Positions 1-35,617 are shown, counted from the stretch's first letter. The stretch: DNA of 64,000 bases from an uncultured Aminicenantes bacterium (GCA_965195285.1 CBDAFS010000061.1:12458-76457), one strand, 5' to 3'. The notes: generated by a model not told the origin, from the letters alone. Made by a program: numbers and translations.

Positions 1-80
1 GTAGAGGCAAGCGGCGGCTTGCCCTCAATATTGCACAAATATCGATATTTCAAGCCGGGCGAATTGCCATTCGCCCCTAC
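1..80. repeat. GTAG-type REP doublet (REPIN-like), copy 1; possibly truncated context at window edge
   Basis: GTAGAGGCAAGCGGCGGCTTGCCC...GGGCGAATTGCCATTCGCCCCTAC: two GTAG-tagged palindromes in inverted orientation; near-identical copy at 6377-6456. Confidence 0.85.
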
Positions 81-195
81 TGCAATCCTCTCACGACTAA
101 CGATTTATGCCTTTTGATTCACTCAACCCCCAGATCCCATATCCCAAATCCCTCTTAACCTTTGCCTGTTATTGAGATCAACAAACAAAAACTTG

Positions 196-214
196 TTTGT
201 CAACCCCTGTCCCC
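196..214 (-). repeat. GGGG-tagged array site 1 (GGGGACAGGGGTTGACAAA)
   Basis: Member of the TTTGTCAAGGCCTGNCCC direct-repeat family; 6 bp past the stop of CDS 221-1672. Confidence 0.75.
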
Positions 215-220
215 GATAAT

Positions 221-1672
221 TTACTGCTGGCTGTGGGTAAAATATATGATGCTTCCGGCTTTGGTAGTTAAATAAATATTACCTTCATAATCCAGAGTGA
301 TATCTCCGTAACCTGGCGGTATCTGAAGCGGAATTGAAGGCTCCCAGGTTGATCCACGATCAATTGAACGACGGTAAAAAGCTCCACCACCGGAGCGATA
401 GTAATAAAGGTTGACATTTCCTGCGTCATCTACGGCCAGTGCGGCCTGCAGAAAATAACTCGTATGATCTGCCAGGCTCATTACCCCCTGCCAGTTAAGT
501 CCGCCGTTATCGGATCTCCTGAACAAAATATGATATATATTGTTAATTTGTTCCTCCCAAATGATATATACAGCTCCCAACCTATCAACAGCAATATCAG
601 GATATCTGAACTCAACATCGTTGAAAGACAACATAATCGGATTTCCCCAACTTACTCCAAAGTCCGGAGAATGGTTAAAAAATATCTGGCTGGAATTAGA
701 AGTAAGACTAGAATCAAGCCATACTACAGAAACCCTTCCACCGGTATCCACAGCCATTCTCTCCAGTCTGGAATGTTCGGGAGTATTGCTTATATTTACA
801 GGTGCGCTCCAGCTACTTCCAGCATCGTCAGAATGAATAAAAAAGATATTGCACTCAGCAGTCAACATATAGCTGTTGAATACCACCGCAATTTTGTCAA
901 TATTATAGTTGTAAAGTCCAATATCGGAGTATTTGGCATAAATGGCAAAATTCCAGGTTAAATTAATCAGAGAACTCCAGGAATCACCCCGGTCAGTGGA
1001 GCGCAAAAAATATAGATCATAGAGGCCGTCTGAGGATGTTTGTCTGGCATAAACGATATTAATATTCGATGTATCAACTGCAATCGCGGGATAAAAGTTT
1101 CCCAAATTGCAAGGCTGGGGTAGCTCATGCATCTTAATCCAGGTTAATCCTAAATCTTCAGATCGAATAAAATACACATAACCTTCAAGGTCAACCGGAT
1201 CACATTCACCCCAGACAATATTTATATTTTTTTCAAGATCAACATCGATTTTTCCGTTTCTACTGATTGGACAATTCTGAGAAACCTGATCCGAGACCTT
1301 AAAATAATTGGGGAAATCATGCAGAAGCTTGACATTGAAATATAATGTACCGGATTTTTTACCGCTGACAGTGTCCCAGGCCACAACCGGAATGGACACT
1401 CCTCCGGTGGCAATATCCTGGAGAAAGATCCGGCACTGTAACTCTTCCTCGCTCATGACGACCGTTGATTTCTGGATTCCGTTAAAAACAATAACCGTGC
1501 TTTCTGTAAAATTTGCTCCGGTTGCTGTCAGAGTAAAATCGGGCATATGGTATACCTTGGTGTCCGGTGTTAAAGATGACAAGGTCAGCACCGTATTTGG
1601 ACAACTAACCAGAATTAACAATAAACCCAATCCAATAATAGACAATACAGCTTTATGCATTTTTCGCTTCAT
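221..1672 (-). CDS. Lipoprotein with IPT/TIG-like N-domain and BNR/Asp-box (sialidase-like) beta-propeller
   Basis: Lipobox LILVSC; repeated SxDxGxxW Asp boxes (SEDLGLTW, STDRGDSW, SDDAGSSW, SPDFGVSW, SDNGGLNW, SIDRGSTW); paralog of 3138-4604. Confidence 0.8.
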   Translation of the reverse strand: MKRKMHKAVLSIIGLGLLLILVSCPNTVLTLSSLTPDTKVYHMPDFTLTATGANFTESTVIVFNGIQKSTVVMSEEELQCRIFLQDIATGGVSIPVVAWDTVSGKKSGTLYFNVKLLHDFPNYFKVSDQVSQNCPISRNGKIDVDLEKNINIVWGECDPVDLEGYVYFIRSEDLGLTWIKMHELPQPCNLGNFYPAIAVDTSNINIVYARQTSSDGLYDLYFLRSTDRGDSWSSLINLTWNFAIYAKYSDIGLYNYNIDKIAVVFNSYMLTAECNIFFIHSDDAGSSWSAPVNISNTPEHSRLERMAVDTGGRVSVVWLDSSLTSNSSQIFFNHSPDFGVSWGNPIMLSFNDVEFRYPDIAVDRLGAVYIIWEEQINNIYHILFRRSDNGGLNWQGVMSLADHTSYFLQAALAVDDAGNVNLYYYRSGGGAFYRRSIDRGSTWEPSIPLQIPPGYGDITLDYEGNIYLTTKAGSIIYFTHSQQ

Positions 1673-1740
1673 TTTGATTCCCCCTATATAAATATTAAGT
1701 TAATTCCTGTTTGTTTCAAAAAAAATATATCCTGCACTCC

Positions 1741-1809
1741 ACCTTTATCTTTACCTTTACCTGAGATTTAGGTCATAGAGCATGATATCATTTGTCAAGG
1801 CCTGACCTT
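1741..1809. repeat. (TTTACC)n module plus array site 2 (1791-1809)
   Basis: ACCTTTATCTTTACCTTTACCTGAGATT is identical at 4675-4702; followed by TTTGTCAAGGCCTGACC, 5 bp from the stop of CDS 1815-2909. Confidence 0.8.
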
Positions 1810-1814
1810 GATAT

Positions 1815-2909
1815 CTAATAAGGCTTAAAGGCGATGCCTAAGATTTTATCCGGTGATGCCGGAAATGTGGTGACCAGTGACCAGTTTATCCCGTCAATGG
1901 AATCCATAACCAACCCCTCACCGGAAGCAGTATACCCGATTGCAACAAATTTGTTTCCTCCAAAAACAACATCATTTATACCAAAACCACCTGCGATAGC
2001 TGGGGCAGTTCCTTCCTGCCAGGTAATCCCTCCATTAAGGGAATACCAGACCAATCCTTGCCCAGTAATCACCCATTTTCCATTGCCATAGGCCACTCCC
2101 ATCAAATGTTCAACTAAATCTGTTGCCGGAGTTGCTGCTGTCCAGCCGGCTCCATTGTCTGAATAAACAATGGTCGCAAACATTCCAACCGCAACAAAGC
2201 GGCCGTTTCCATATCCTACTCCCCATAAGGTCTCAGAGGTCCTTCCTGAAGAAGCCCCATACCAGTTATCCCCTCCGTCCTGGGACCAGATAATATTGTG
2301 TACGATTACCGGGGGATTAATGTCCGGTGGCTGAGGATCTACATCGCCCACCGCCACAAAACGGCTTACGCTATTTCCCTGTATAACCACTGTACCGAAA
2401 GCGACCATATTTAAATCCGTTGTTGTTTGGGTATCCGAAGCCAGAGTCCAGTCAACCCCGCCGTTGGTAGAAAAATAAGCCATACCGTCAGTCCCAACCG
2501 CCACGTAATGGGCGACCCAGGGCTGGGTCCAGGTATTGCTTTCTCCGCCGGCAATACCCCAAAAAACTCCACACCCATAAGTATTTCCCCGGGTCCAGGT
2601 CATGCCATCCTCAGAAAAATACACACCCTTATCTGAACCCACCGCAACAAAGCGGTCATAATAATAGGTTATATTGGTTAAAGACGAATCGTTAACATAA
2701 TAACTATTGGTACTATCCCAGACCGTCCCATCTTCCGAGCTTTGCAGTACGCCGCTATCAACATTGATTTGACCGGAAACACCGCTAACAATGACAAAAT
2801 GGACTTCAAAATCATCCCCCGGATCGCAGGCTGAAAATAAAAAACAACAGGTCACACTAAAAACGATTAGAATATACTTAATAAAACCGTAATTTTTAAT
2901 TTTTCCCAT
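1815..2909 (-). CDS. Lipoprotein, WD40/YVTN/BNR-like repeat beta-propeller
   Basis: Lipobox LFSAC; repeats FVAVG..SxDGxxW / GVAYGNG. Confidence 0.75.
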   Translation of the reverse strand: MGKIKNYGFIKYILIVFSVTCCFLFSACDPGDDFEVHFVIVSGVSGQINVDSGVLQSSEDGTVWDSTNSYYVNDSSLTNITYYYDRFVAVGSDKGVYFSEDGMTWTRGNTYGCGVFWGIAGGESNTWTQPWVAHYVAVGTDGMAYFSTNGGVDWTLASDTQTTTDLNMVAFGTVVIQGNSVSRFVAVGDVDPQPPDINPPVIVHNIIWSQDGGDNWYGASSGRTSETLWGVGYGNGRFVAVGMFATIVYSDNGAGWTAATPATDLVEHLMGVAYGNGKWVITGQGLVWYSLNGGITWQEGTAPAIAGGFGINDVVFGGNKFVAIGYTASGEGLVMDSIDGINWSLVTTFPASPDKILGIAFKPY

Positions 2910-3030
2910 ATTTCCCTCCCTTTCTTTTTATTATAAATAAAATAAAGCAATTTTTCAACAAGAATGAAATAGACGCCACTCCTTTATTGAATAAAAAAGC
3001 AGCGACCGTCCCACACCCTCACATCCCATG

Positions 3031-3133
3031 TTTGTCAAGGCCTGGCCCTGCTGGGTGAATGAGTCAATGGGCGGATGGGTTAAAACTGAGGTTAAGTTCA
3101 ATGAGCACGATTCTATTTGTCAAGCCCTGACCC
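3031..3133. repeat. Array sites 3 (3031-3048) and 4 (3116-3133) enclosing an (AATGGGT/GAGT)-repeat module
   Basis: Two direct copies of TTTGTCAAG(G/C)CCTG(G/A)CCC; the internal 3052-3096 matches 4757-4801 at 43/45. Confidence 0.8.
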
Positions 3134-3137
3134 TTTT

Positions 3138-4604
3138 TTACTGCTGGCTGTATATAAAATAGATGGAGTTACCGCTCACGATAGTCAAATAAATATTTCC
3201 TTCATCATCCAGAGTGATGTCACCGCTGCCCGGTGGCGGCAACGGCATAGAGATCGCCGGTTCCCAGTTTCTGCCGCGATCAATTGAACGCCTGAAAAAA
3301 CAGCCGTCGCTATTGTAGTAATACAAATTTACATTTCCGGCAGTGTCGGCGGCAATGACTGCCTGCATCGAATTACTCGAATTTTCTGCAAGGCTCACCG
3401 GTGCTGTCCAGGTATTGCCGTCATCATCCGAATGTCTAAATGAAACAGTGTATATATTATTATCTCCTTTCTGTTCCACCCATACCGCATAAACACACCC
3501 GGGCTCTCCGACTTCGACATCGGGGTATCTGAATTCAACAGGGTTGTAAGACAGCAACATCGGATTTCCCCAGGTTGCTCCAAAATCCGGAGAATGATTA
3601 AAGAATGTTTCTTTAGAATTAGTACCGGAAATATTATCCAGCCACACCACATAAATTTCTCCCCCGGTATCTACAGCCATTCTTTCCAGCCTGGAATGTT
3701 CCGCAGTATCGTTTACTTTTACCGGCAAACTCCACGAAGCTCCGCTGTTACTGGAATGGACAAAATAGATGTCGCATTGGGCACTCCACATATAGCTGTT
3801 GAATACCACCGCTATATTTTCAACATTATTGTATTCGCTAATTTTAATATCGGAATATTTGGCATAACTTGTATATCCCGATGTCACATTCAGGGGAACG
3901 GTCCAGTGGATTCCCTCCCCCTCCTGGGAGCGCAAAAAATACAGGTCATAGGTGCCGTCTGAGGTTGTCTGCTTGGCATAAACGATATTAATATTCAACG
4001 ATCTGTCAACTGCAATCGCAGGATAAAAGTTGCCCAAATTCGCAGGCTGGGGTATCTCCTGGCTATTGATCCAGGTTAATCCTAAATCTTCCGAACGAAT
4101 AAAATAGACATAACCTTCCCCATCAGGCGGTTGGCCTTCCTCCCAGACAACGTTGACGTTTTTTTCATAATCCACTGCAATTTTAGCGCTGCGAGTGATA
4201 GGGCAATATTGGGAAAGGCTTGAGCTTGCCCGTACAGGACCGGAAAACGTATGCACCTGCTCGACCCTAAAGTACAAGGTATTGGATTCATTACCGCTGA
4301 CTGTATCTCTTACCACAACCTGGAGGGACGCCCCCCCGATGGCAATATCCTGGGGATAGATCTGGCAATTTAACTCTGTGCTGCTCACAAAGACCGTTGT
4401 TTTCTGGATTCCGTCAAAAACAATAACCGTATCCGATGAAAAATCAGTCCCGGTAGCTGTCAGGGTAAATTCGGGCATATGGTATACCTTTGTGTCCGGT
4501 GTCAACAATGACAGGGTCGGCACCGGATTGGGACAATTTATCAAAACAATAACCAAACTCAACCAGAATAAAGATAGAAAAATCTTTTTAATTTTTGTTT
4601 TCAT
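3138..4604 (-). CDS. Lipoprotein with IPT/TIG-like N-domain and BNR/Asp-box beta-propeller (paralog of 221-1672)
   Basis: Lipobox VLINC; shared blocks such as TPDTKVYHMP, EGYVYFIRSEDLGLTWI, EHSRLERMAVDTGG. Confidence 0.8.
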   Translation of the reverse strand: MKTKIKKIFLSLFWLSLVIVLINCPNPVPTLSLLTPDTKVYHMPEFTLTATGTDFSSDTVIVFDGIQKTTVFVSSTELNCQIYPQDIAIGGASLQVVVRDTVSGNESNTLYFRVEQVHTFSGPVRASSSLSQYCPITRSAKIAVDYEKNVNVVWEEGQPPDGEGYVYFIRSEDLGLTWINSQEIPQPANLGNFYPAIAVDRSLNINIVYAKQTTSDGTYDLYFLRSQEGEGIHWTVPLNVTSGYTSYAKYSDIKISEYNNVENIAVVFNSYMWSAQCDIYFVHSSNSGASWSLPVKVNDTAEHSRLERMAVDTGGEIYVVWLDNISGTNSKETFFNHSPDFGATWGNPMLLSYNPVEFRYPDVEVGEPGCVYAVWVEQKGDNNIYTVSFRHSDDDGNTWTAPVSLAENSSNSMQAVIAADTAGNVNLYYYNSDGCFFRRSIDRGRNWEPAISMPLPPPGSGDITLDDEGNIYLTIVSGNSIYFIYSQQ

Positions 4605-4670
4605 TCTTTCCTCCCCAATGAATAATAATAATGTAAATCCTATATAATAACAACAATAAAACGTTCTTCA

Positions 4671-4822
4671 CTTTACCTTTATCTTTACCTTTACCTGAGA
4701 TTAAGGATCACAGAGCATAAAACCATTTGTCAAGGCCTGGCCCCAGAAGAGGTCGATGGGTGAATGAGTCAATGAGTGGATGGGTTAAAACTGAGGTTAA
4801 GGTAAAGGCTGAGGTGAAGTAA
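4671..4822. repeat. (TTTACC)n module + array site 5 (4726-4744) + AATGGGT module + GGTAAA repeats
   Basis: Direct sequence matches to 1741-1809, 3052-3096 and 7921-7990. Confidence 0.8.
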
Positions 4823-4909
4823 GAAATCGATTCGTAACTCCAATTCAGTACTTGAATTTTTTTTATTGAAATGATATAAAGAAATCAGAGAATAACTTGG
4901 GAGGGGAAA

Positions 4910-5923
4910 ATGAATTTAAAATTTTTCGTAGTTGTAATTTTGAGCTTTTTATTGATATGCTGCTCAACAATTGATTCGGAAGAGAATGATGAACCACAGG
5001 TGTCAACATCAAAGGTTGTGGTATTTGATAATTTTGATCCGGATTACAACAATCCGCCATTCGGGGATAAAGTAACCATCATGAACACAGATGGGCTTGT
5101 CGAAAACACAATTACCGGATTCAATAATTGCCAGAATGTCGGCGGTAACCGGGTACTATCGGTTTCCGATGATGGTCAGAGCTTTGTCGTCTGCGAAATG
5201 GTGACCTACAGCGATCAAAAAATATCCAAGTATGATATTTCCGGAAACCTGATTCTCAGTATCCCAGGAAATTTCACCTCGGTCAGTATGCATGACAACT
5301 TCATATATGCGTTCAGCGGCCATACCATTTCTGTATACACGATGTACAAAATTGATGCATCCGGCAATATTATTATCCAAAATGAAGTGGGGCAATTTGA
5401 CCATGTTGTCGATCCGATAAACGAGGTTTTGTGGACCGTTGGCGGCCTAATCTTAAAAGCAGATCTGAATCTGAATGAACTGATGAGGACTGATCCCATA
5501 AACTGGTGTGCCGTCTCGGTTGATGTGAATACGGATGGTTCGATATGGGTGGCTGAAAGAAAACATCCTGAAGTGGCAGGAAGCGAGAACAGGTTATTGA
5601 AGATTTCCCCCTCTGGCGAAACCCTTCAGGTAATTGATCAGGATTCATATCCGATGTGTATACGCGTCAATAAATCCACCGGTAATTTCTGGGCAACCGG
5701 AGAATTTGGACTAAAAAAATTCGATCCGCTCGGCAATGAAATCATTTCAATTACCGAACTTAGAGGCTTTACCATTGCCATTGATCCTTTTGACAATTCA
5801 ATTTGGGTAGGATGTTGGGGTAATGTTCGGCACTATTCCAGTGACGGTTTGCAACTTGGTATTTATACCGATGGATTTTCAATTGATGATCAGAAACGGG
5901 TAGGCATAGCCGTCTCCAATTGA
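4910..5923 (+). CDS. Lipoprotein, NHL/YVTN-like beta-propeller
   Basis: RBS GGAGG; lipobox LLICC; repeats such as VDVNTDGSIWVA and IAIDPFDNSIWVG. Confidence 0.7.
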   Translation: MNLKFFVVVILSFLLICCSTIDSEENDEPQVSTSKVVVFDNFDPDYNNPPFGDKVTIMNTDGLVENTITGFNNCQNVGGNRVLSVSDDGQSFVVCEMVTYSDQKISKYDISGNLILSIPGNFTSVSMHDNFIYAFSGHTISVYTMYKIDASGNIIIQNEVGQFDHVVDPINEVLWTVGGLILKADLNLNELMRTDPINWCAVSVDVNTDGSIWVAERKHPEVAGSENRLLKISPSGETLQVIDQDSYPMCIRVNKSTGNFWATGEFGLKKFDPLGNEIISITELRGFTIAIDPFDNSIWVGCWGNVRHYSSDGLQLGIYTDGFSIDDQKRVGIAVSN

Positions 5924-5934
5924 TAAAATGATGA

Positions 5935-5950
5935 TCAGGTCTTTCATTAT
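5935..5950 (+). repeat. Copy of the core of the HUH-transposase terminal inverted repeat
   Basis: TCAGGTCTTTCATTAT vs TCAGTTCTTTCATTAT at 34675-34690 (15/16); 11 bp past the stop of CDS 4910-5923. Confidence 0.65.
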
Positions 5951-6009
5951 TGACATGAGTGGCTGAGAGCTGAGAGGATAAGAAGTTCTGAAGTCAAGAA
6001 CAAAACAAC

Positions 6010-6130
6010 TTGTTATTCAGTTGTAATTCAATAGTAACTCATAGTAATTCAGTTGTCATAAATAGTTTTTACAATAGAATTACCATGAATAACGCGAGTG
6101 CAACGAGCAAATTACCACGAATTACCATTC
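6010..6130. repeat. Imperfect ~12-bp tandem repeats in inverted arrangement (GTAATTCA... / ...GAATTACCA)
   Basis: ttgttattcagttgtaattcaatagtaactcatagtaattcagttg followed by gaattaccat/aaattaccac/gaattaccat. Confidence 0.55.
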
Positions 6131-6273
6131 ACGGCTTACGCCTTACGACTCACGATTTTTGCTTCTTGATTCACAAGCCCCCAACCCCTAAATCCCAAAT
6201 CCCGCTTTACCTTTACCTCAGATTAAGGGGGGTAGTCATTAGGGTCGGTTCTTGAATCTTGAATTTGATTCAA

Positions 6274-6561
6274 TTTGTCAAGGCCTGGCACTTTGGGTAA
6301 ATGGGAACATGAGTCAATGGGTGGATGGGTTAAGGACTAGGAAAAGGTATAGGTTTAGGTAAAGAGAAATTGAAATGTAGGGGCAAGCGGCGGCTTGCCC
6401 TCAATATTGCATAAATATCGATATTTCAAGCCGGGCGAATTACCATTCGCCCCTACAGCTTCTCATCAACACATCTACCCATCTTCCAATTCACGAGTCA
6501 GCAAAATATCATTGCTGGGTGCAGGTGGCTTGATGCTGAGGTAAAGGCAAATGTAAAGTAA
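6274..6561. repeat. ~290-bp composite repeat, copy A (site 6 + AATGGGT module + GGTAAA module + REP doublet 6377-6456 + CCCATC module + GGTAAA module)
   Basis: Colinear with 7932-8191. Confidence 0.75.
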
Positions 6562-6574
6562 AATCGCCCTCTTC

Positions 6575-7009
6575 TTAGATTTTTGTTGCTGTCCAGGTTC
6601 CTGATTCAGCACCACCACAACCGACTCCTCCTGTATAACTTATTGTCATTGTTCCATTCATGGAGGTGTCAGAGATTGAAGTTCCATCCCAGATCCAAAC
6701 AACATGACAGGGTTCATCATTATAAAAATCCCAATTTACCTGAACCGTGTTGCAATCGCTAACCGTGTAGATACCTGCATTGCCCTCGACGTATTTCATT
6801 CCGCTGACAGTACCGCCGGTTGAACTTCCGGAAAAGGTAAGAGTATGATTATCAGGCCAAACTTCTGCATCATCCCAATCCCAGAGCACAGTAACATTCC
6901 AGGTTCCGGTAATATCGAATGTACAGTCATCGGCAGTTGAACAACCCGGATGATAAACCAACCCTAAAAAAACAATAAAATAGAGTAAAACCCTAAGCGT
7001 TAATTTCAT
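6575..7009 (-). CDS. Small lipoprotein of the 'DITGTW' beta-barrel family (lipocalin/avidin-like fold inferred)
   Basis: RBS GGAGGAG before MKLTLR; Cys after hydrophobic signal; FDITGTW...MNGTM...SGTWTATK shared with 9542-9949 and 28416-28790. Confidence 0.7.
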   Translation of the reverse strand: MKLTLRVLLYFIVFLGLVYHPGCSTADDCTFDITGTWNVTVLWDWDDAEVWPDNHTLTFSGSSTGGTVSGMKYVEGNAGIYTVSDCNTVQVNWDFYNDEPCHVVWIWDGTSISDTSMNGTMTISYTGGVGCGGAESGTWTATKI

Positions 7010-7214
7010 TTCTCCTCCTCCAGGCAATAATTTGATTACCTGCAAACACATTCCAAAATACTTACAATCCTATTTTAATTAATCAACAATAATTTTTCAA
7101 GTACAGAAAAACAGAATCGCCAATGGTCAATGGGGTCAGTGAATCTCCTACTTCTATATATTTATTACGTTTTTCTAAAAATAAATGGATAAAGAAATCC
7201 GGGTAGAAGTAACC

Positions 7215-7242
7215 TTGACAATCCGGGATTAAAGGTGATAAT
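7215..7242 (+). promoter_or_regulatory. Putative sigma70 promoter for the EamA gene
   Basis: TTGACA-N16-GATAAT, followed by RBS GGAGG upstream of 7282. Confidence 0.45.
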
Positions 7243-7281
7243 GATTATCTTATATCAAATCAATAACGGAGGAAAACTGAA

Positions 7282-7728
7282 ATGCCTTTATATATCCTTT
7301 ATGCGGTTTTGGCCGGGATTGCCTGGGGTGTTGGCGGTTATTTTGAAAAAACGGGTTTAAAGGAAATCGGACTTCCGCCAATTGTCGGAATCGCCCTGCG
7401 GACAGCAGTTGCCCTGATTATCCTGGGACTGCTTTCCATTCCTGCCTGGCAAGCCATAAACAAATCCGCGGGCATCAAATCCTGGCTGATGATTATCATC
7501 GGGGGCGGGATTATTGCCGGCAGCCTGGGAATGTGGTGTTTTTATTCCTCCCTGTCGCTCTCGGATAACCTGGGAATCACACTGGCCATTGCCTTTGCCT
7601 TCTCCCCCATTGCCGGGACCGTCACCGGCCTGCTCAAGGGCAATCAGCACATGGATCTGAAAACCGGCCTGGGACTGATTTCAATTGTTTTCGGGATTAT
7701 CCTCATCCAGCTCTCCCATAAAACATAG
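7282..7728 (+). CDS. Single-domain EamA/DMT family membrane transporter
   Basis: 5 TM helices, AGIAWGVGGYFEKTGL motif. Confidence 0.75.
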   Translation: MPLYILYAVLAGIAWGVGGYFEKTGLKEIGLPPIVGIALRTAVALIILGLLSIPAWQAINKSAGIKSWLMIIIGGGIIAGSLGMWCFYSSLSLSDNLGITLAIAFAFSPIAGTVTGLLKGNQHMDLKTGLGLISIVFGIILIQLSHKT

Positions 7729-7931
7729 AATCCCATCAGACCATATCTAACTTTATTTGGCCTGCATTGCAAAAGTAAAGGCATGGCACCATTAGCTAAA
7801 TGAGTCTATGGGTCAATGGGTGGACGGGGGAGAAATTGTAATAGATCCGTTTGTTGACGTCCTGCCTTCCCCATCTACCCATTCACTCTTCTTCCCATTT
7901 ACGAGTTAAAGATTCAGTACAATAAAACCAT

Positions 7932-8191
7932 TATGTAAAGGCATGTCCCCCCAGAGGTCGATGGGGGAATGAGTCAATGAGTAAATGGGTTAATGGGTGA
8001 ATGAGTTAAGGACCAGGAAAAGGTATAGGTTAAGGTAAAGTGAAAAATGGACAGGTAGGGGCAAACGGCGGGTTGACGGGCGAATTGCCATTCGCCCCTA
8101 CAGCCTCCCATCAACTCATCTTCTCATCTACTAGTTAGAAGAATTCTGCTGCTGGAAGCTGGTGGCTGAGGTAAAGGTAAAGGTAAAGTAA
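7932..8191. repeat. Composite repeat copy B with internally deleted REP doublet (8055-8101)
   Basis: Colinear with 6274-6561; begins with degenerate site 8, TATGTAAAGGCATGTCCCC. Confidence 0.7.
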
Positions 8192-8246
8192 CATTTATCC
8201 TTATGCTCCATCTTCAAGCTGCAAAACACATGACCTGATTGCTTTT

Positions 8247-8504
8247 TTATTTCTTATAGATAATCTTGAAAATAAACAAGGTGAGGGCCAGTAAGAATTC
8301 GATTATTCCGAAAACAGCCAGCGGTACAATCCTATTCACTATCCCATAAACCACCCATAGAGACAATCCGGACATCAATATGACGGTCCAGACCGTGGAA
8401 ATATCCCTGGCCGATCTTGTTCTCCAGGTTTTTATTACCTGTGGAGACAAGGAGACAGCTACCAAAAAACCGGCAATATACCCAACAATCTCAATCTTAT
8501 ACAT
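8247..8504 (-). CDS. SemiSWEET / PQ-loop (MtN3) family transporter
   Basis: IVGYIAGFL..SLSPQVIKTWRTRSARDIS motif, 3 TM; start moved to MYKIE. Confidence 0.85.
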   Translation of the reverse strand: MYKIEIVGYIAGFLVAVSLSPQVIKTWRTRSARDISTVWTVILMSGLSLWVVYGIVNRIVPLAVFGIIEFLLALTLFIFKIIYKK

Positions 8505-8635
8505 TGTTTTAATTCCCCTTTTTTGTGTAATCCTCAATTTCGGCTTATTTCCACTCATTATACCAGACTGTAAGTTTGGAATCTAATAAAATATTGTCAA
8601 GGGATACCAGATTTAATTTTTTTAGCAAAACCCTA

Positions 8636-8654
8636 TTTGTTAAGGCCTGTCCCC
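8636..8654 (-). repeat. Array site 9 (GGGGACAGGCCTTAACAAA)
   Basis: Last recognisable copy of the direct-repeat family. Confidence 0.75.
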
Positions 8655-8697
8655 TTCTTGCTTTTGACAAAATCACATTTTTCATTTATATAGTTAA

Positions 8698-9492
8698 ATG
8701 GAATCCTTTTTTATTTTAAAAGTCCTGGTATCCTTCATTGCAGCCGGGATATGGATCGGCAGCGTCACCCTCATTGCCGAAAGACTCGGCAGCAAACGGG
8801 GCGGCCTCATAGCCAACCTCCCCTCCACTGTCCTGATTGCTCTGGTATTTGTGGGACTGGTCAACGATGCCGGATTTGCTGCCCTGGCCACCCGGGCCGT
8901 ACCGGTCGGAATGACCATTGATACAATTTTTTTGATGGTGTTTATCATCCTGCTGAAGAAAAGTCTGGTGACAGCCGTGCTGCTTTCCCTCTCAACCTGG
9001 ATGGTTCTGGCATATACAGCCGGACAGATTCATTGCAGCAGCATGGTCTTCACTATCCTTGTTTATTTTCTGGTGGCAATAACCTCATTTTTAATTCTGG
9101 AATACAGATTTGAAATCCCGTCCAAAGGAAAAAGTCGGAAAAAATTCACTCCTATAAATTCCATGGTGAGGGCCCTGTTTGCCGGCAGTGTGGTGGCCGG
9201 TACCACCATCATCTCTGCCTTTGCCGGCACCTACTGGGTCGGACTGTTTTCCACTTTTCCGGCTGTCATGCTATCCACCATGGTTATTTTAACACTGAAT
9301 CAGGGTAAGGCCTTTGCCCGGGCAACCGGAAAAGTCATGATCCTGGCTTCAACCAATATTATCATCTATGCCCTGGGTGTATCCATCACCTACCCTTTGC
9401 TGGGCATTACCCTCGGAACCATTATTTCCTTTGTTTTCTCATTCTTCTGGGTATTGTTGCTGCACCCGCTGATCAATAAAATCATCAAATAA
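8698..9492 (+). CDS. Multi-TM membrane protein (DUF3147-like)
   Basis: GGLIANLPST and GLFSTFPAV duplicated motifs; ~8 TM. Confidence 0.6.
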   Translation: MESFFILKVLVSFIAAGIWIGSVTLIAERLGSKRGGLIANLPSTVLIALVFVGLVNDAGFAALATRAVPVGMTIDTIFLMVFIILLKKSLVTAVLLSLSTWMVLAYTAGQIHCSSMVFTILVYFLVAITSFLILEYRFEIPSKGKSRKKFTPINSMVRALFAGSVVAGTTIISAFAGTYWVGLFSTFPAVMLSTMVILTLNQGKAFARATGKVMILASTNIIIYALGVSITYPLLGITLGTIISFVFSFFWVLLLHPLINKIIK

Positions 9493-9541
9493 TAATTTGT
9501 ATTTGTTTGAAAATCATATATATTATTTAGTGGAGGGAAAC

Positions 9542-9949
9542 ATGAAAAGGAAATTATGGATTATGTTAATGATTATTCCCTTGCTGGCATTCCTGTTTCA
9601 GGCCGGATGCAAAACCGAGGAAGAGACCATAACCGAAGCCCAGTATGACATCACCGGCACCTGGCAGGTGACTACAACCTGGACATCACTGGATGTAACC
9701 CTGGCTAATCCTCCCGGCACCTATGCCATTACTTTCGAGGGAAGTGTTACCAACGGGATATTTTCAACCAGCAATAATGAAACCGGAATCTATCTGGTAA
9801 TCGGTACGGTGGTTCAATGGATATTTTCTTATGGCGCTGTTTACACCGGAAATTTTACCGATGACTCCACAATGACGGGTGAAATGGTAGGCAATTACGG
9901 TGCCACCGGCACCTGGAATGCCGTCAAATCAAACCAGAGTACATTATAA
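9542..9949 (+). CDS. Small lipoprotein of the 'DITGTW' family
   Basis: RBS GGAGGG; lipobox FQAGC-KTEEE; YDITGTW...GTWNAVK. Confidence 0.7.
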   Translation: MKRKLWIMLMIIPLLAFLFQAGCKTEEETITEAQYDITGTWQVTTTWTSLDVTLANPPGTYAITFEGSVTNGIFSTSNNETGIYLVIGTVVQWIFSYGAVYTGNFTDDSTMTGEMVGNYGATGTWNAVKSNQSTL

Positions 9950-12088
9950 TCCCATTTCTTTTAAAATATGCCCGGCATTGGCAAACTTTTCAGTGATAAA
10001 CATTACAAAACGGATGTCCACCGAGATGGTTCTCTGTAATTGTTCATCGTATTGCCAGTCACTATTCATGGCCTCATAATTCCCGTCAAAGGCAATTCCG
10101 ACCAGTTCACCCCGGGCATTGAGTACCGGGCTGCCGCTGTTTCCACCGGTAATATCACAGACATGCAGAAAGGCAACCGGGATATCATTCACATTCGCTG
10201 CAGCCCATTTTCCAAAATCCTTTTTGGCATAGAGGTCTTTGAGTTTATCCGGTACGATAAAGGGATCTTTACCGGTTTCCTTTTCCAGAATCCCCCCTAT
10301 CAGGGTAAACGGATCATGGTATACCGCATCACGGGGTGAATATCCTTCAACCTTTCCATAGGTGAAGCGGATGGTCCGGTTGGCATCCGGGTACATCCCA
10401 GCGCCCTTCCAGGCATACAGGGCTTCGATGTACTGTTTTCTCAGGGCGGTTATCCTGGCCCCGAAAGCTTCATTCCTCTTCTTAATGACCTCGCATTCCG
10501 GATAAATACGGCGGGCCAGATCCAGTAACGGATCATTCAGGGCTTCGATTTCCTTGGAACTTTTTTGGAACAGTGTTTTGACAAATTCCACATCCTTTAA
10601 TTTGGTTTTCGCATAGGCGGCTTCGATGAATTGATCGATGCTGATATCCCTGTTTTTGAAAATGAAATCCAGTCCCTTGATCCGTTTGGCTTCATCCAGT
10701 TCGGCCATGAGCTTCAATGATCTTTTCAGCAGGGCCTTATCTGCCGGTTCATAGTAACTCAGGTACCTGAAATGCAAACGGTCGGCCTTACGTTTGATAT
10801 CCCTTTCGGAAAAATAGGGGTCGCGGTCTGCCAGCGGTTTTTCCCGTTCCCGGATAATATAATATAGAGATTTGGCAATACCGGCCATGTCACCGCTCAG
10901 GTAATCAAAAAGGCCCAGGGCATCGTCATGATCGCGGTTGGCCTGAAGCCCCTGGTACAGGGCTCTGATATCGGTTAAAATATGGCCATATTTCTTCTGG
11001 AGCTTTTTATCTGCTTTTAAAAAGTTGGACAGCTGGTTTTCAAACAGTAATTTTTTGTCCAGAAACCGGCTCTTTTTCATTCCGTCTACCCGTCCCTGGA
11101 AATTTTTAAGCCCATTGTTCAACCCCTTGATGAAGTTGGCCACTTTCATCCGGGCATTGATCGAATCCTGGGCAAAAGATTCCAGGATATCAATAGTTTC
11201 CTGAAAGAGTTTAATGGAACGGGGATAGGAAAAACTAAAATTGTAATCGACTGAATTCGAGGTCCGGTAGCGGGTGGTACCGCCTGGATAACCGATGATA
11301 AAGGTCATGTCCCCTTTCTGGAGTCCCCGGGCAGCCACCTTCAGCCAGAATTTGGATTTATAGGGAATATTTGCTTCATGGAATTTCCGTCCGGTACCGT
11401 CAGGAGCCATGTAGATACGCATGAAAGAAAAATCACCGGTATGACGGGGCCACATCCAGTTGTCGATATCACCTCCATAATTACCGATGGCTGCAGGCGG
11501 AACATAAACCACACGGACATCATCAAATCGCTTGTGCACAAACAGGATATACTGTTTACCATTAAACATCTCCGCCACTTTGGCCGAGATATCCGTATGC
11601 TCCTTCTCAATTTCATCGGTAATGGCCTTGATATGGCGATCAATGGCCTTCTGTCTTTTCTCCGGGTCCCCGATCTTTTGAAACGCCAAGAATTCAGAAG
11701 TAACTTCCCTCATGTCCTCCAGAATATAAGCTGAATATCCAGGCGCTTCTATCTCTTCTTCTCTGGTTTTGGCCAGGTAGCCACTGGTAATCAGATCGGT
11801 CTCCTTAATCCGGGCAGATGCCCGCTGAACAGCCGTAAAGGCCACATGGTGGTTGGTCAATAACAAACCATCCGAAGATACCAGTTCGGCAGTACCCCCT
11901 CCCAGCAGGACAATGGCCTGAGTAAGGCAGGGCTTGTCCGGACTGTATATCTGTTCAACCGGGACCTGGATACCCTTGCTGCCCAGGTCAAGGCCTTTCA
12001 ACTGGGTTAATAACCACATTCCTTCCTCTGCACAGATAAAAACACTGAGGATAAAAATTAATAGCAGTATGATAACACTTTTCTTCAT
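9944..12088 (-). CDS. S46 family dipeptidyl peptidase (DPP7/DPP11-like)
   Basis: AEEGMWL N-terminus, LTNHHVA, DNWMWPRHTGDF, DITGGNSGSPV. Confidence 0.95.
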   Translation of the reverse strand: MKKSVIILLLIFILSVFICAEEGMWLLTQLKGLDLGSKGIQVPVEQIYSPDKPCLTQAIVLLGGGTAELVSSDGLLLTNHHVAFTAVQRASARIKETDLITSGYLAKTREEEIEAPGYSAYILEDMREVTSEFLAFQKIGDPEKRQKAIDRHIKAITDEIEKEHTDISAKVAEMFNGKQYILFVHKRFDDVRVVYVPPAAIGNYGGDIDNWMWPRHTGDFSFMRIYMAPDGTGRKFHEANIPYKSKFWLKVAARGLQKGDMTFIIGYPGGTTRYRTSNSVDYNFSFSYPRSIKLFQETIDILESFAQDSINARMKVANFIKGLNNGLKNFQGRVDGMKKSRFLDKKLLFENQLSNFLKADKKLQKKYGHILTDIRALYQGLQANRDHDDALGLFDYLSGDMAGIAKSLYYIIREREKPLADRDPYFSERDIKRKADRLHFRYLSYYEPADKALLKRSLKLMAELDEAKRIKGLDFIFKNRDISIDQFIEAAYAKTKLKDVEFVKTLFQKSSKEIEALNDPLLDLARRIYPECEVIKKRNEAFGARITALRKQYIEALYAWKGAGMYPDANRTIRFTYGKVEGYSPRDAVYHDPFTLIGGILEKETGKDPFIVPDKLKDLYAKKDFGKWAAANVNDIPVAFLHVCDITGGNSGSPVLNARGELVGIAFDGNYEAMNSDWQYDEQLQRTISVDIRFVMFITEKFANAGHILKEMGL

Positions 12089-34641: not shown

Positions 34642-34716
34642 CAATTCAGAAAATGGAAAATGAGGAAAATGGGGTCAGTTCTTTCATTATAGCGTTTTTT
34701 TTAGTATACTTGCTTC

Positions 34717-35589
34717 ATGGCTAGACCATTAAGAATTGAATTCCCCGGTGCTGTGTACCATATTACAACCAGAGGTAATGAAAAAAAGGCAATATTCAGG
34801 AATGATCGGGATCGAGAAAGATTTATTGAAATTCTATCACTGGTTGTTAAGAGATTTAAATGGATATGTCATTCATACTGTTTAATGGACAATCACTATC
34901 ATCTATTAATTGAGACACCAACAGCAAATTTATCGAGAGGTATGAAGCAGTTAAATGGGATTTATACCCAGAGTTTTAATCGTATACATAACAGAGTTGG
35001 ACATTTGTTTCAAGGTAGATATAAATCGATTTTAATAGAGAAGGAATCATATCTGCTTGTATTGAGTAGATATATGGTGTTAAATCCAGTGAGAGCAGGT
35101 GATGTAAATCATCCGGGAGAATGGCCCTGGAGCAGTTATGGTGCAATAATTGAAGAAGTGAAAAAACCTGATTTTTTAACTGTTGATTGGATATTGTCAC
35201 AGTTTTCCTCAGACAAAAAAAAGGCTGTGGAAGAATATGAACTATTTATCATATCAGGTTATAAGACAGGGTTTCCATATAATGAATTAGTCGGACAAAT
35301 TTTATTGGGTAGTGAAGGGTTTATAAAGAAGGTGAATGGTTATGTAAGTCAAGAATCAAGAAATAATATGAAAGAGGTGCCCAGAGAACAACAACTCAGT
35401 ATATCGACAACACTGGATGAAATATTTCAGAAGAATACGAGAAAAGGTGTCACAAGGAATAAGATAATCTGCGAGATATATCACAATAACGATTTTACAA
35501 TGAAGGAAATCGGTGATTATTTAGGATTGCACTACACGACTATTAGTAGAATTATAAACAGTTATGAGAAGAAGAAAAAAATGCTATAA
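34717..35589 (+). CDS. Y1 HUH tyrosine transposase, REP/TIR-associated (RAYT/TIRYT) type, with C-terminal HTH
   Basis: MARPLR..PGAVYHITTRGN, YCLMDNHYHLL (HUH), GHLFQGRYKS, RY..LNPVRAG, WPWSSY; C-terminal TMKEIGDYLGLHYTTISRII HTH. Confidence 0.9.
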   Translation: MARPLRIEFPGAVYHITTRGNEKKAIFRNDRDRERFIEILSLVVKRFKWICHSYCLMDNHYHLLIETPTANLSRGMKQLNGIYTQSFNRIHNRVGHLFQGRYKSILIEKESYLLVLSRYMVLNPVRAGDVNHPGEWPWSSYGAIIEEVKKPDFLTVDWILSQFSSDKKKAVEEYELFIISGYKTGFPYNELVGQILLGSEGFIKKVNGYVSQESRNNMKEVPREQQLSISTTLDEIFQKNTRKGVTRNKIICEIYHNNDFTMKEIGDYLGLHYTTISRIINSYEKKKKML

Positions 35590-35590
35590 T
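35582..35590 (+). promoter_or_regulatory. Outward-facing extended -10 (TGnTATAAT) inside the right TIR
   Basis: TGCTATAAT, 27 bp upstream of the sulfotransferase ATG; overlaps the transposase stop. Confidence 0.5.
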
Positions 35591-35617
35591 GAAAGAACTG
35601 ACCCCAAAGTTTAAGTC

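What the first reader, a model, noticed from the sequence alone, without database searches (positions are those of the whole stretch)
196..8654. Candidate integron-like gene-cassette array delimited by directly repeated GGGG-tagged sites, with no integron integrase in the window
Seen: a ~19-bp motif TTTGTCAAGGCCTGNCCC(C) (minus strand GGGGNCAGGCCTTGACAAA) recurs in one orientation at 196, 1791, 3031, 3116, 4726, 6274 and 8636, with degenerate copies at 7772 and 7932. I did not recognise it in the housekeeping part of the window. The copies cut the region into units of 0-2 unrelated accessory genes (two BNR lipoproteins, two other propeller lipoproteins, a DITGTW lipoprotein plus EamA, a SemiSWEET). 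Three copies lie only 4-6 bp past a stop codon, the way attC sites abut integron cassette genes. Known: GGGGWSAS-tagged inverted repeats flank TIR-associated HUH tyrosine transposase genes. Inference: these are HUH recognition/cleavage sites and the region is a cassette array assembled by single-strand cut-and-paste.
Basis: partly seen in the sequence, partly recalled or inferred. Interest (0 to 1): 0.85.

Follow-up and report, generated by a model that had tools for sequence, protein, structure and literature searches.

The report
Solo transposase-end repeats bounding gene units
The repeated 19-base motif is the end sequence of a known but unstudied family of transposase-like genes (TIRYT), present here as nine to ten transposase-less copies in one orientation between surface-protein genes whose content differs between related genomes, so it may mark recombination points but is not a proven gene-cassette system.

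Summary
The motif (minus strand rGGGnCAGGCCTTGACAAAT) occurs 8 times in the window against 0.3 expected, with a weaker copy at 7772. All copies share one orientation. At up to 2 mismatches, 7 of 11 genome-wide hits lie in this 8.5 kb.

It is not an attC site, a REP or a promoter box. It is the terminal inverted repeat (GGGGWSAS class) of a TIRYT/TIRtron element, a RAYT-like HUH Y1 transposase with a C-terminal HTH (Di Nocera 2013; Quentin 2018). A Nitrospirales MAG carries a 331-aa TIRYT gene flanked by perfect 26-nt inverted copies of this sequence. The window's own genome has about 14 TIRtrons with related ends, but none with this one, so the copies here are orphans.

Similar same-orientation arrays with different genes occur in two sister species and in one metagenome contig. 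Several gene-sized differences between relatives break at or inside a copy. However, the break positions vary, genes lie in either orientation, each gene has its own promoter, and one TIR-free indel lies nearby.

Verdict: real solo TIRYT ends acting as recombination junctions. HUH-driven cassette exchange is possible but unshown. This scan met TIRYT repeats before on other DNA.

The parts
196..214 (-). Solo TIRYT-type terminal repeat, minus strand GGGGACAGGGGTTGACAAA; lies 6 bp after the stop of gene 221-1672
221..1672 (-). Lipoprotein with TIG and BNR_2 domains, 483 aa (unit A)
   Evidence: 61% identical to 3138-4604
1791..1808 (-). Solo terminal repeat, AGGTCAGGCCTTGACAAA; 6 bp after the stop of 1815-2909 and 118 bp before the start of 221-1672
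1815..2909 (-). 364-aa lipoprotein with a weak BNR match
3031..3048 (-). Solo terminal repeat, exact match to the pattern
3116..3133 (-). Solo terminal repeat, 4 bp after the stop of 3138-4604; lies under an RNA-library contig (3102-3351)
3138..4604 (-). Lipoprotein with TIG and BNR_2 domains, 488 aa (unit A'), paralogue of 221-1672
4726..4744 (-). Solo terminal repeat, GGGGCCAGGCCTTGACAAA
4910..5923 (+). 337-aa lipoprotein with no Pfam match; a homologue sits beside a site in metagenome contig L202
6274..6291 (-). Solo terminal repeat, GTGCCAGGCCTTGACAAA
6377..6456 (.). REPIN: two inverted GTAG-type REPs. This is a separate repeat family; further copies lie at 1-80 and 8055-8101
6575..7051 (-). 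158-aa lipoprotein of the small 'GTW' family
7282..7728 (+). EamA-family membrane protein, 148 aa
7772..7789 (-). Degenerate terminal-repeat copy (5 mismatches)
7932..7950 (-). Degenerate terminal-repeat copy, GGGGACATGCCTTTACATA (3 mismatches)
8247..8558 (-). PQ-loop (SemiSWEET-type) protein, 103 aa
8636..8654 (-). Solo terminal repeat, GGGGACAGGCCTTAACAAA; homology to sister genome G003 begins 5 bp beyond it, at 8659
34671..35605 (+). Complete TIRtron of another subfamily: 16-nt inverted ends GGGGTCAGTTCTTTCA at 34671-34686 and 35590-35605 around the TIRYT gene 34717-35589 (Y1_Tnp plus C-terminal HTH)

Best explanation
The motif is the outer 19-20 bp of the terminal inverted repeat of a TIRYT/TIRtron element, a RAYT-like HUH Y1 'transposase' with a C-terminal helix-turn-helix. 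It is present here as nine (ten with the one just left of the window) transposase-less solo copies, all in one orientation. They sit between self-promoted genes for secreted or lipoproteins and small transporters, in a stretch whose gene content differs between relatives.

Shown: the copies are TIRYT ends; they are local and uniformly oriented; relatives carry similar arrays with other genes; several gene-sized differences break at or inside a copy.

Inferred: the copies multiplied locally together with their flanking low-complexity modules and genes, by unit duplication such as A/A'. They now serve as junctions where gene units are duplicated, lost or replaced. This would happen by recombination between the directly repeated copies and modules, possibly started by a nick made in trans by one of the genome's TIRYT paralogues. 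It is not an integron, and precise site-specific cassette exchange has not been demonstrated.
For: - Identity as a TIRYT end. L108 has perfect 26-nt inverted repeats GGGGTCAGGCCTTGACAAAGGACAAT around a 331-aa Y1+HTH gene, and L071 has a 320-bp transposase-less pair.
- TIRtrons in this genome. There are 17 PF01797 matches. About 14 full genes are each flanked by GGGG(A/T)(C/G)A(C/G) inverted repeats, several ending in GCTTGACA. The window's HUH protein reaches the NCBIfam cut-off for REP-associated tyrosine transposase.
- Literature (passages read). TIRYT, TIRtron, the GGGGWSAS consensus and 'moderately abundant families of TIRs', single, dimeric or grouped, are described in PMC3733652. Subclass 2.1 with an HTH extension is described in PMC6006769.
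- Local origin. 7 of 11 genome hits lie in 8.5 kb. The A/A' paralogue alignment runs exactly from the first base of one site to the last base of the next (196-1807 vs 3116-4742, 72% identity, no similarity outside).
- Arrays elsewhere. G001:C130 has 5 of 5 copies in one orientation in 8.3 kb with BNR, propeller and GTW-lipoprotein genes. G003 contigs carry conserved site modules but other genes. L202 has two direct copies around a radical-SAM gene.
- Breaks at sites. G003 homology starts 5 bp past site 8636. The 1.2-kb Fe-S gene indel breaks 4 nt inside the C47 site. The C31 252-aa gene unit breaks about 13 nt into its TIR.
- Not promoters. Only 1 of 8 scanned copies supplies a -35 to a predicted promoter, and separate promoter-like sites lie upstream of 5 of the 7 genes.
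Against: - No cognate TIRYT gene with this end was found in G000-G003. The nearest G000 paralogue is 39% identical to the L108 enzyme.
- Break positions relative to the GGGG end are -5, +4, about +7 and about +13, so they are not uniform. The other end of each indel is not at a site.
- A 424-bp one-gene insertion at 9519-9942 has no TIR.
- A close strain in another study keeps the order 1802-12000 (contigs), so turnover is not fast.
- Outside this array and the C31 array, neighbouring sites 450-6000 bp apart share orientation in only 9 of 23 pairs, so uniform orientation is not a general rule.
- All relatives are fragmented MAGs, so some 'breaks' could be assembly artefacts.
Confidence: 0.55

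Rival explanations
1. A true HUH-driven cassette system. A TIRYT acting in trans nicks the GGGG-bearing strand at each site. Two direct sites then act like a double origin of a rolling-circle replicon. The unit between them leaves as a single-stranded circle carrying one site and re-enters at another site, building a uniformly oriented array at one locus.
For: - Direct orientation in 10 of 10 copies here, 5 of 5 in G001:C130 and 8 of 8 in C31:162-176 kb. The last mixes 4 TIR subfamilies between unrelated accessory genes.
- Roughly one site per unit. Among genome-wide solo sites lying between two co-oriented genes, 22 of 24 lie nearer the upstream stop.
- The Fe-S gene indel junction reads AGGA|CAGG, with GGA at both ends. 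This would fit cleavage after GGGGW.
- The C31 gene unit is found at 94% identity in another context in G003.
- About 14 TIRYT paralogues are available in trans.
Against: - No circular or site-to-site excision junction appeared in the four runs laid. The one site-to-site joint (7774 to 7935) is a repeat variant.
- Breakpoints are not at one fixed position, and only one end of each indel is at a site.
- Genes lie in either orientation and carry their own promoters.
- Homologues of the BNR gene in other genera lack sites (0 of 18). The G001 homologue has the site inverted relative to the gene.
- The propeller and lipoprotein orthologues in G001 have no site.
- No TIRYT has ever been shown to cut DNA: the two papers read report none, and the term search returned only those.
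Confidence: 0.25
2. The copies are inert relics. They are decayed leftovers of past TIRtron or MITE insertions that accumulate in dispensable DNA. The gene-content differences arise by unrelated processes, and proximity to the copies is coincidental.
For: - No cognate transposase was found.
- Several copies are degenerate (7772, 7932, 6274).
- A TIR-free gene insertion lies 0.9 kb away.
- In G001 the lipoprotein homologue sits in an insertion flanked by 38-bp direct repeats without a TIR.
- Earlier notes of this scan reached this verdict for TIRYT repeats in other genomes (unchecked AI notes).
Against: - Three independent breaks lie within 13 bp of a copy.
- The exact site-to-site limits of the A/A' duplication.
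- Uniform orientation of 10 of 10 copies. By my own arithmetic the chance is about 0.002, before correcting for the 8 clusters listed.
- The core is kept across four species at 75-97% DNA identity while the flanks change.
Confidence: 0.15
3. The copies are regulatory boxes: mobile promoters (TTGACA as -35) or operators bound by the HTH domain of TIRYT-like proteins, co-regulating the surface-protein genes.
For: - The motif contains TTGACA.
- 4 copies lie 118-122 bp and one 78 bp upstream of co-oriented start codons.
- The same motif sits upstream of orthologous genes in G002 and G003.
- TIRtron left ends sit 48-61 bp before the TIRYT start codon.
Against: - No conserved -10 element. Only 1 of 8 scanned copies forms a predicted promoter, and separate promoter-like sites lie closer to 5 of the 7 genes.
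- Copies 6274, 7772 and 7932, and at least 3 of 5 copies in G001:C130, have no co-oriented gene downstream.
- The motif is not palindromic.
- It sits in different gaps of the same locus in different species.
Confidence: 0.05

Closest known systems
TIR repeat families of TIRtrons / TIRYT (Di Nocera et al. 2013, PMC3733652; subclass 2.1 of Quentin et al. 2018, PMC6006769)
   Same: GGGGWSAS-type outer end. The same sequence flanks a Y1+HTH gene as an inverted pair (L108). Transposase-less copies are dispersed in intergenic DNA, singly or grouped. Many TIRtrons occur in the same genome.
   Different: All copies are in direct orientation at one locus, with one per gene unit. No cognate gene was found in the genome. 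Gene-sized differences between relatives break at the copies.
REP/REPIN elements with RAYT (TnpA_REP)
   Same: A related HUH Y1 enzyme family (the window's TIRYT reaches the NCBIfam REP-transposase cut-off). Short intergenic repeats, often just downstream of genes. REPINs with a GTAG tag also occur in this very region.
   Different: The motif has no GTAG tag and no hairpin. REPINs here are a separate family (1-80, 6377-6456, 8055-8101).
Integron cassette arrays and CALINs (attC clusters without an integrase)
   Same: An array of directly oriented short sites, roughly one per gene. Sites abut stop codons. Gene content varies between relatives. No recombinase gene at the locus.
   Different: There is no attC architecture: the sites are 19-20 bp, and 0 of 6 show a fold better than shuffles. 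No IntI lies nearby. The genes carry their own promoters and lie in both orientations. The associated enzyme class would be HUH Y1, not a tyrosine recombinase.
Rolling-circle replicons or IS91/ISCR with two direct origin/terminus sites (recalled, not checked in a paper here)
   Same: HUH chemistry on one strand makes two direct copies of a nick site the natural substrate for releasing the DNA between them.
   Different: Those enzymes are Rep or Y2 proteins with defined ori/ter sites. Nothing comparable has been shown for TIRYT.
Repeat-flanked exchangeable islands such as Neisseria Correia/dRS3-flanked 'minimal mobile elements' (recalled, not checked in a paper here)
   Same: Short conserved intergenic repeats act as portable homology at which gene units are swapped between strains by ordinary recombination.
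   Different: A different repeat family and host. Here the repeats derive from an HUH element's ends and are uniformly oriented.

Membership tests
TIRYT/TIRtron terminal-repeat family | Outer end fits GGGGWSAS | tested here: met
   The consensus of the copies is rGGGnCAG. Three copies (196, 7932, 8636) read GGGGACAG or GGGGACAT. In 4 copies the W position is C (3031, 4726, 6274, 7772), and 5 of 9 copies lack one or two of the four G. The L108 element reads GGGGTCAG.
TIRYT/TIRtron terminal-repeat family | The same sequence flanks a Y1 (HUH) transposase-like gene as an inverted pair | tested here: met
   L108: 26 of 26 nt inverted repeats at 2920-2945 and 4005-4030 around the 331-aa gene 3047-4042. 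That gene aligns over its length with G000 TIRYTs.
TIRYT/TIRtron terminal-repeat family | A cognate TIRYT gene in the same genome | tested here: not met
   None of the 16 HUH genes examined in G000 carries this end. No inverted pair was found in G000-G003. The assemblies are 70-95% complete.
TIRYT/TIRtron terminal-repeat family | A TIRYT binds or cleaves the repeat | not testable with these tools
   This needs biochemistry. None is reported in the passages read.
Integron / attC array (CALIN) | attC site: a 57-141 bp imperfect palindrome that folds as single-stranded DNA (size range recalled) | tested here: not met
   The conserved core is 19-20 bp. For 6 of 6 sites with 20-nt flanks, z-scores are -1.6 to +1.6 against shuffles. 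IntegronFinder was not available.
Integron / attC array (CALIN) | IntI integrase at or near the array | tested here: not met
   There are 6 PF00589 matches in the genome and none on contig C61. Whether any of them is an IntI was not tested.
REP/REPIN | GTAG tag followed by a hairpin | tested here: not met
   The motif has neither. True REPINs are separate elements in the region.
MITE | Two inverted terminal repeats around a short non-coding body | tested here: not met
   All copies in the window are on one strand. MITE-like pairs exist for other subfamilies elsewhere and for this subfamily in L071.
Sigma-70 promoter | -35 and -10 hexamers 16-18 bp apart | tested here: not met
   Only copy 8636 gives a 9-of-12 match.

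The most novel reading that the evidence does not exclude
Directly oriented solo TIRYT ends are the working sites of an HUH (Y1) gene-cassette system. A TIRYT in trans nicks one strand at GGGGW, releases the unit between two direct sites as a single-stranded circle and reinserts it at another site. This would give Aminicenantes-type genomes an integron-like but tyrosine-recombinase-free way to shuffle self-promoted accessory genes, and it would assign a first function to the TIRYT family.
Probability: 0.25. Interest if true: 0.85.

Novelty: new variant of a known kind. Interest (0 to 1): 0.5.

Why it matters
TIRYT genes are common in many phyla, yet no activity or role is reported in the two papers that name the family. 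A full-text search for TIRYT or TIRtron returned only those two works.

This locus offers a concrete, testable substrate. It has a defined 19-20 bp site and candidate enzymes in the same genome. It also has a perfectly matching enzyme-site pair in another phylum (L108), and natural variants whose breakpoints fall at the sites.

If the sites prove to be nicked and to mediate unit exchange, that would add a new route of gene-cassette mobility. If not, the locus is a clear example of how transposase-end relics structure a fast-evolving surface-protein island.

Tried and rejected
- Rfam scan of 1-10000 at E up to 1: no match.
- Sigma-54 and Bacteroidetes-type promoter readings: considered by eye only and dropped because the spacing does not fit (no tool call).
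- Coding reading of the motif (it is followed by a stop in some frames): rejected because the frame differs between copies (sequence).
- Read laying, long X2 contig: its match starts at 1802, inside site 1791, after 29 unlike letters. This is only a hint.
- Read laying, other joints at 1773/1775/7904: they join look-alike leader modules with short sides (26-38 nt) and may come from other copies.
- Read laying, RNA-library contigs over 3102-3351, 6241-6429 and 6621-7126: they cannot show strand or ends and may be DNA.
- Metagenome scan with a leader-plus-site pattern: 0 hits.
- Metagenome scan with the plain site: 12 hits, of which only L202 is related.
I examined only L108, L071 and the titles.
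- Search for empty or filled sites of TIRtrons and MITE-like pairs in sister genomes, to define element ends and target duplications: failed because the MAG contigs break at these repeats. Only 3 of the 14 regions fetched were searched.
- The window's TIRtron locus in G001: it holds two other genes instead.
- GC-skew test: 45 of 71 solo sites follow the skew, the same share as genes (1683 of 2737). Replication direction therefore cannot be separated from gene direction.

Full report
**1. Observation**

The pattern TTTGTCAAGGCCTGNCCC, with up to 3 mismatches, matches 8 times in the window. All matches are on the + strand and all lie between 196 and 8653. The shuffle mean is 0.30, and none of 100 shuffles reaches 8.
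- A ninth, weak copy lies at 7772-7789 (5 mismatches).
- A tenth lies 64-83 bases left of the window on the same contig.
- In the whole 3.28-Mb assembly, 7 of the 11 hits at up to 2 mismatches are in this stretch. One exact copy is at C47:173-190.
- Three copies lie 4-6 bp beyond the stop of a minus-strand gene.
- Alignment of ten copies shows a conserved core of 19-20 bp (ATTTGTCAAGGCCTGnCCCc). The flanking modules are optional: a CTTTACC-rich 'leader' on one side and GATGGG-type 8-mers plus GGTAAAGG tracts on the other.

The genes between copies are:
- two TIG/BNR_2 lipoprotein paralogues;
- a third lipoprotein with a weak BNR match;
- two lipoproteins without a Pfam match;
- an EamA protein and a PQ-loop protein.

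**2. What the motif is**

On the minus strand the motif reads rGGGnCAGGCCTTGACAAAT.

The genome holds 17 matches to Y1_Tnp (PF01797), about 14 of them full genes of 290-330 aa. Nearly every such gene is flanked by a pair of inverted repeats that start GGGG(A/T)(C/G)A(C/G). The upstream repeat begins 48-61 bp before the start codon and the downstream repeat lies 0-42 bp after the stop. Several read ...GGTGCTTGACA....

The window's own example is gene 34717-35589, with ends GGGGTCAGTTCTTTCA. That protein has Y1_Tnp plus a C-terminal HTH, and it reaches the NCBIfam cut-off for REP-associated tyrosine transposase.

This matches the published description of TIRYT genes and TIRtrons:
- The TIR consensus is GGGGWSAS, and 'moderately abundant families of TIRs' occur singly, as dimers or grouped (PMC3733652, passages read).
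- The group corresponds to subclass 2.1 of the HUH Y1 superfamily, which has an HTH extension (PMC6006769, passages read).

A scan of one genome per species for GGGNCAGGCCTTGACAA gave mostly chance hits, but two loci from a Nitrospirales MAG are informative:
- L108 has perfect 26-nt inverted repeats GGGGTCAGGCCTTGACAAAGGACAAT around a 331-aa Y1+HTH gene.
- L071 has a 320-bp transposase-less pair with the same ends.

So the finding's motif is a genuine TIRYT terminal repeat.

No HUH gene in G000 carries it, and no inverted pair exists in the three sister genomes. The L108 enzyme is 39% identical to its nearest G000 paralogue, C47_23718, whose end begins GGGGTCAGGTCT. Within G000, protein groups track end-sequence groups.

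**3. What it is not**
- No Rfam family matches.
- None of the 6 sites folded as single-stranded DNA does better than shuffles, so the site is neither attC-like nor REP-like.
- GTAG-type REPINs are present (1-80, 6377-6456, 8055-8101; about 30 genome-wide) but form a separate family.
- The organism uses canonical promoters. Five of the 7 array genes have a sigma-70-like site upstream of the start: the three BNR-type genes and the 158-aa lipoprotein within 20-50 nt, EamA at about 40-70 nt. No such site was listed for 4910-5923. Only the PQ-loop gene borrows the site's hexamer, so 1 of 8 scanned copies forms a predicted promoter.
- No tyrosine recombinase gene lies on the contig.

**4. Genome-wide behaviour of such ends**

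Fourteen end subfamilies plus the motif give 135 sites at up to 2 mismatches, and 127 are intergenic. I classed 32 as TIRtron ends, 26 as close inverted pairs and 77 as solo.

Among the 71 intergenic solo sites:
- The upstream gene is co-oriented in 43 and opposed in 26.
- Where both neighbours are co-oriented, 22 of 24 sites lie nearer the upstream stop.

A second uniformly oriented array exists at C31:162-176 kb. It has 8 of 8 sites on one strand, from four subfamilies, between unrelated accessory genes.

Elsewhere, neighbours 450-6000 bp apart share orientation in only 9 of 23 pairs. Site orientation follows GC skew no more than genes do.

**5. Relatives**

The motif is confined to the genus among the 41 genomes searched; the other hits are in coding DNA. 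With a looser pattern, G000 has 7 copies, G001 has 14, G002 has 3 and G003 has 6.
- G001:C130 (8.3 kb) is a second array. It has 5 of 5 copies on one strand, bounding a GTW lipoprotein, an 889-aa protein, a propeller protein, a BNR homologue and another lipoprotein. Genes lie in either orientation.
- G003 is 93-97% identical to G000 in the housekeeping flank. It keeps the site modules at 80-90% identity but carries other genes between them. Its homology to G000 starts at 8659, 5 bp beyond site 8636.
- Metagenome contig L202 has two direct copies 1.2 kb apart around a radical-SAM gene, next to a homologue of 4910-5923.
- At the DUF438-hydrolase locus, the site sits in a different gap in G001 than in G002 and G003. 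The 1.2-kb Fe-S gene is present in G000 and G002 and missing in G003 and G001. The G003 junction reads ctgtctgAGGA|CAGGCC, that is, 4 nt inside the site, with GGA at both ends.
- A 252-aa gene unit of the C31 array is 94% identical in G003 but in another context. The 5' break is about 13 nt into its end repeat.
- Within G000, the A/A' paralogue alignment runs exactly from site to site.

**6. Against a cassette system**
- Break positions vary (-5, +4, about +7, about +13), and the other end of each indel is not at a site.
- A TIR-free one-gene insertion lies at 9519-9942.
- The G001 orthologues of the lipoprotein and propeller genes have no site.
- BNR homologues in other genera are followed by a GGGG tag in 0 of 18 cases. 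The one tag the scan flagged (G018) lies 32 nt from the stop and looks like chance.
- Contigs of a close strain from another study keep the order 1802-12000 and show no excision joint.
- All relatives are fragmented MAGs.

**7. Reading**
- Most likely (0.55): these are orphan solo TIRYT ends that multiplied locally with their units and now act as recombination junctions in a surface-protein island. A TIRYT nick in trans is a possible but unshown trigger.
- True HUH cassette exchange: 0.25.
- Inert relics: 0.15.
- Regulatory boxes: 0.05.

Earlier notes of this scan judged TIRYT repeats in other genomes as 'not an integron'. I agree on the family and on the integron verdict. However, here the copies are clustered and uniformly oriented, and breaks do fall at them.

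Figures and supplements of the two papers were not available to me. They may list this end subfamily or similar groupings.

Noticed in passing
window 1-80, 6377-6456, 8055-8101; also G000 C41, C30, C46: GTAG-type REP doublets (REPINs; GTAGGGGCGAATGGCAATTCGCCC paired with a GTAGGGGCAAACGG arm), about 30 genome-wide. They are regularly embedded in strand-asymmetric, degenerate short-period tracts: (GGTAAA)n, (CGTAAAG)n, (GGGTGAAT)n and (GAATTTn)n. The origin of these tracts is unexplained.
   Followed up: partly
G000 whole genome (17 PF01797 matches; e.g. C8, C14, C47, C31, C46, C50, C15, C30, C26, C9, C27, C49, C12): An unusually large set of about 14 full TIRtrons in a 3.3-Mb genome. The proteins are 26-67% identical, and their groups track the groups of end sequences, which suggests co-diversification of enzyme and site.
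   Followed up: partly
G000 C31:162108-176147: A second uniformly oriented array: 8 solo ends of four subfamilies, most 2-34 bp after the stop of a co-oriented gene, between unrelated accessory (partly defence-like) genes.
   Followed up: partly
window 9519-9942: A precise 424-bp insertion relative to G003, carrying one small secreted-protein ORF (9497-9949) between convergent genes, with no terminal repeat at its borders.
   Followed up: partly
L032 (G001:C8) about 5795-6665: A homologue (62% identical) of the 158-aa lipoprotein sits in an insertion of about 830 bp flanked by a 38-bp direct repeat of the 3' end of the neighbouring 244-aa gene. This is a different way of single-gene insertion.
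   Followed up: no
L045 (G002:C104, 5.5 kb): The contig is circularly permuted relative to G000 C31:160000-162011: its end and start overlap by about 25 bp. This could be an assembly artefact, a tandem repeat or a circular molecule.
   Followed up: no
G000 C47:190-290 versus L022 (G003): In G000 the DUF438-like gene downstream of the C47 site is deleted except for its first ~60 bases (about 20 codons), which are fused to the upstream region of the hydrolase gene.
   Followed up: partly
L108 and L071 (Nitrospirales MAG): The same 20-26 nt terminal repeat occurs in a different phylum, both as an intact TIRtron and as a 320-bp transposase-less derivative. This implies horizontal spread or strong constraint on the end sequence.
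   Followed up: partly
G000 C61:3400-12300 (left of the window): An AT-rich block with a 1392-aa protein and a fragment that looks by eye like an AraC-type HTH abuts the array. Most of it has no DNA match in G003.
   Followed up: no
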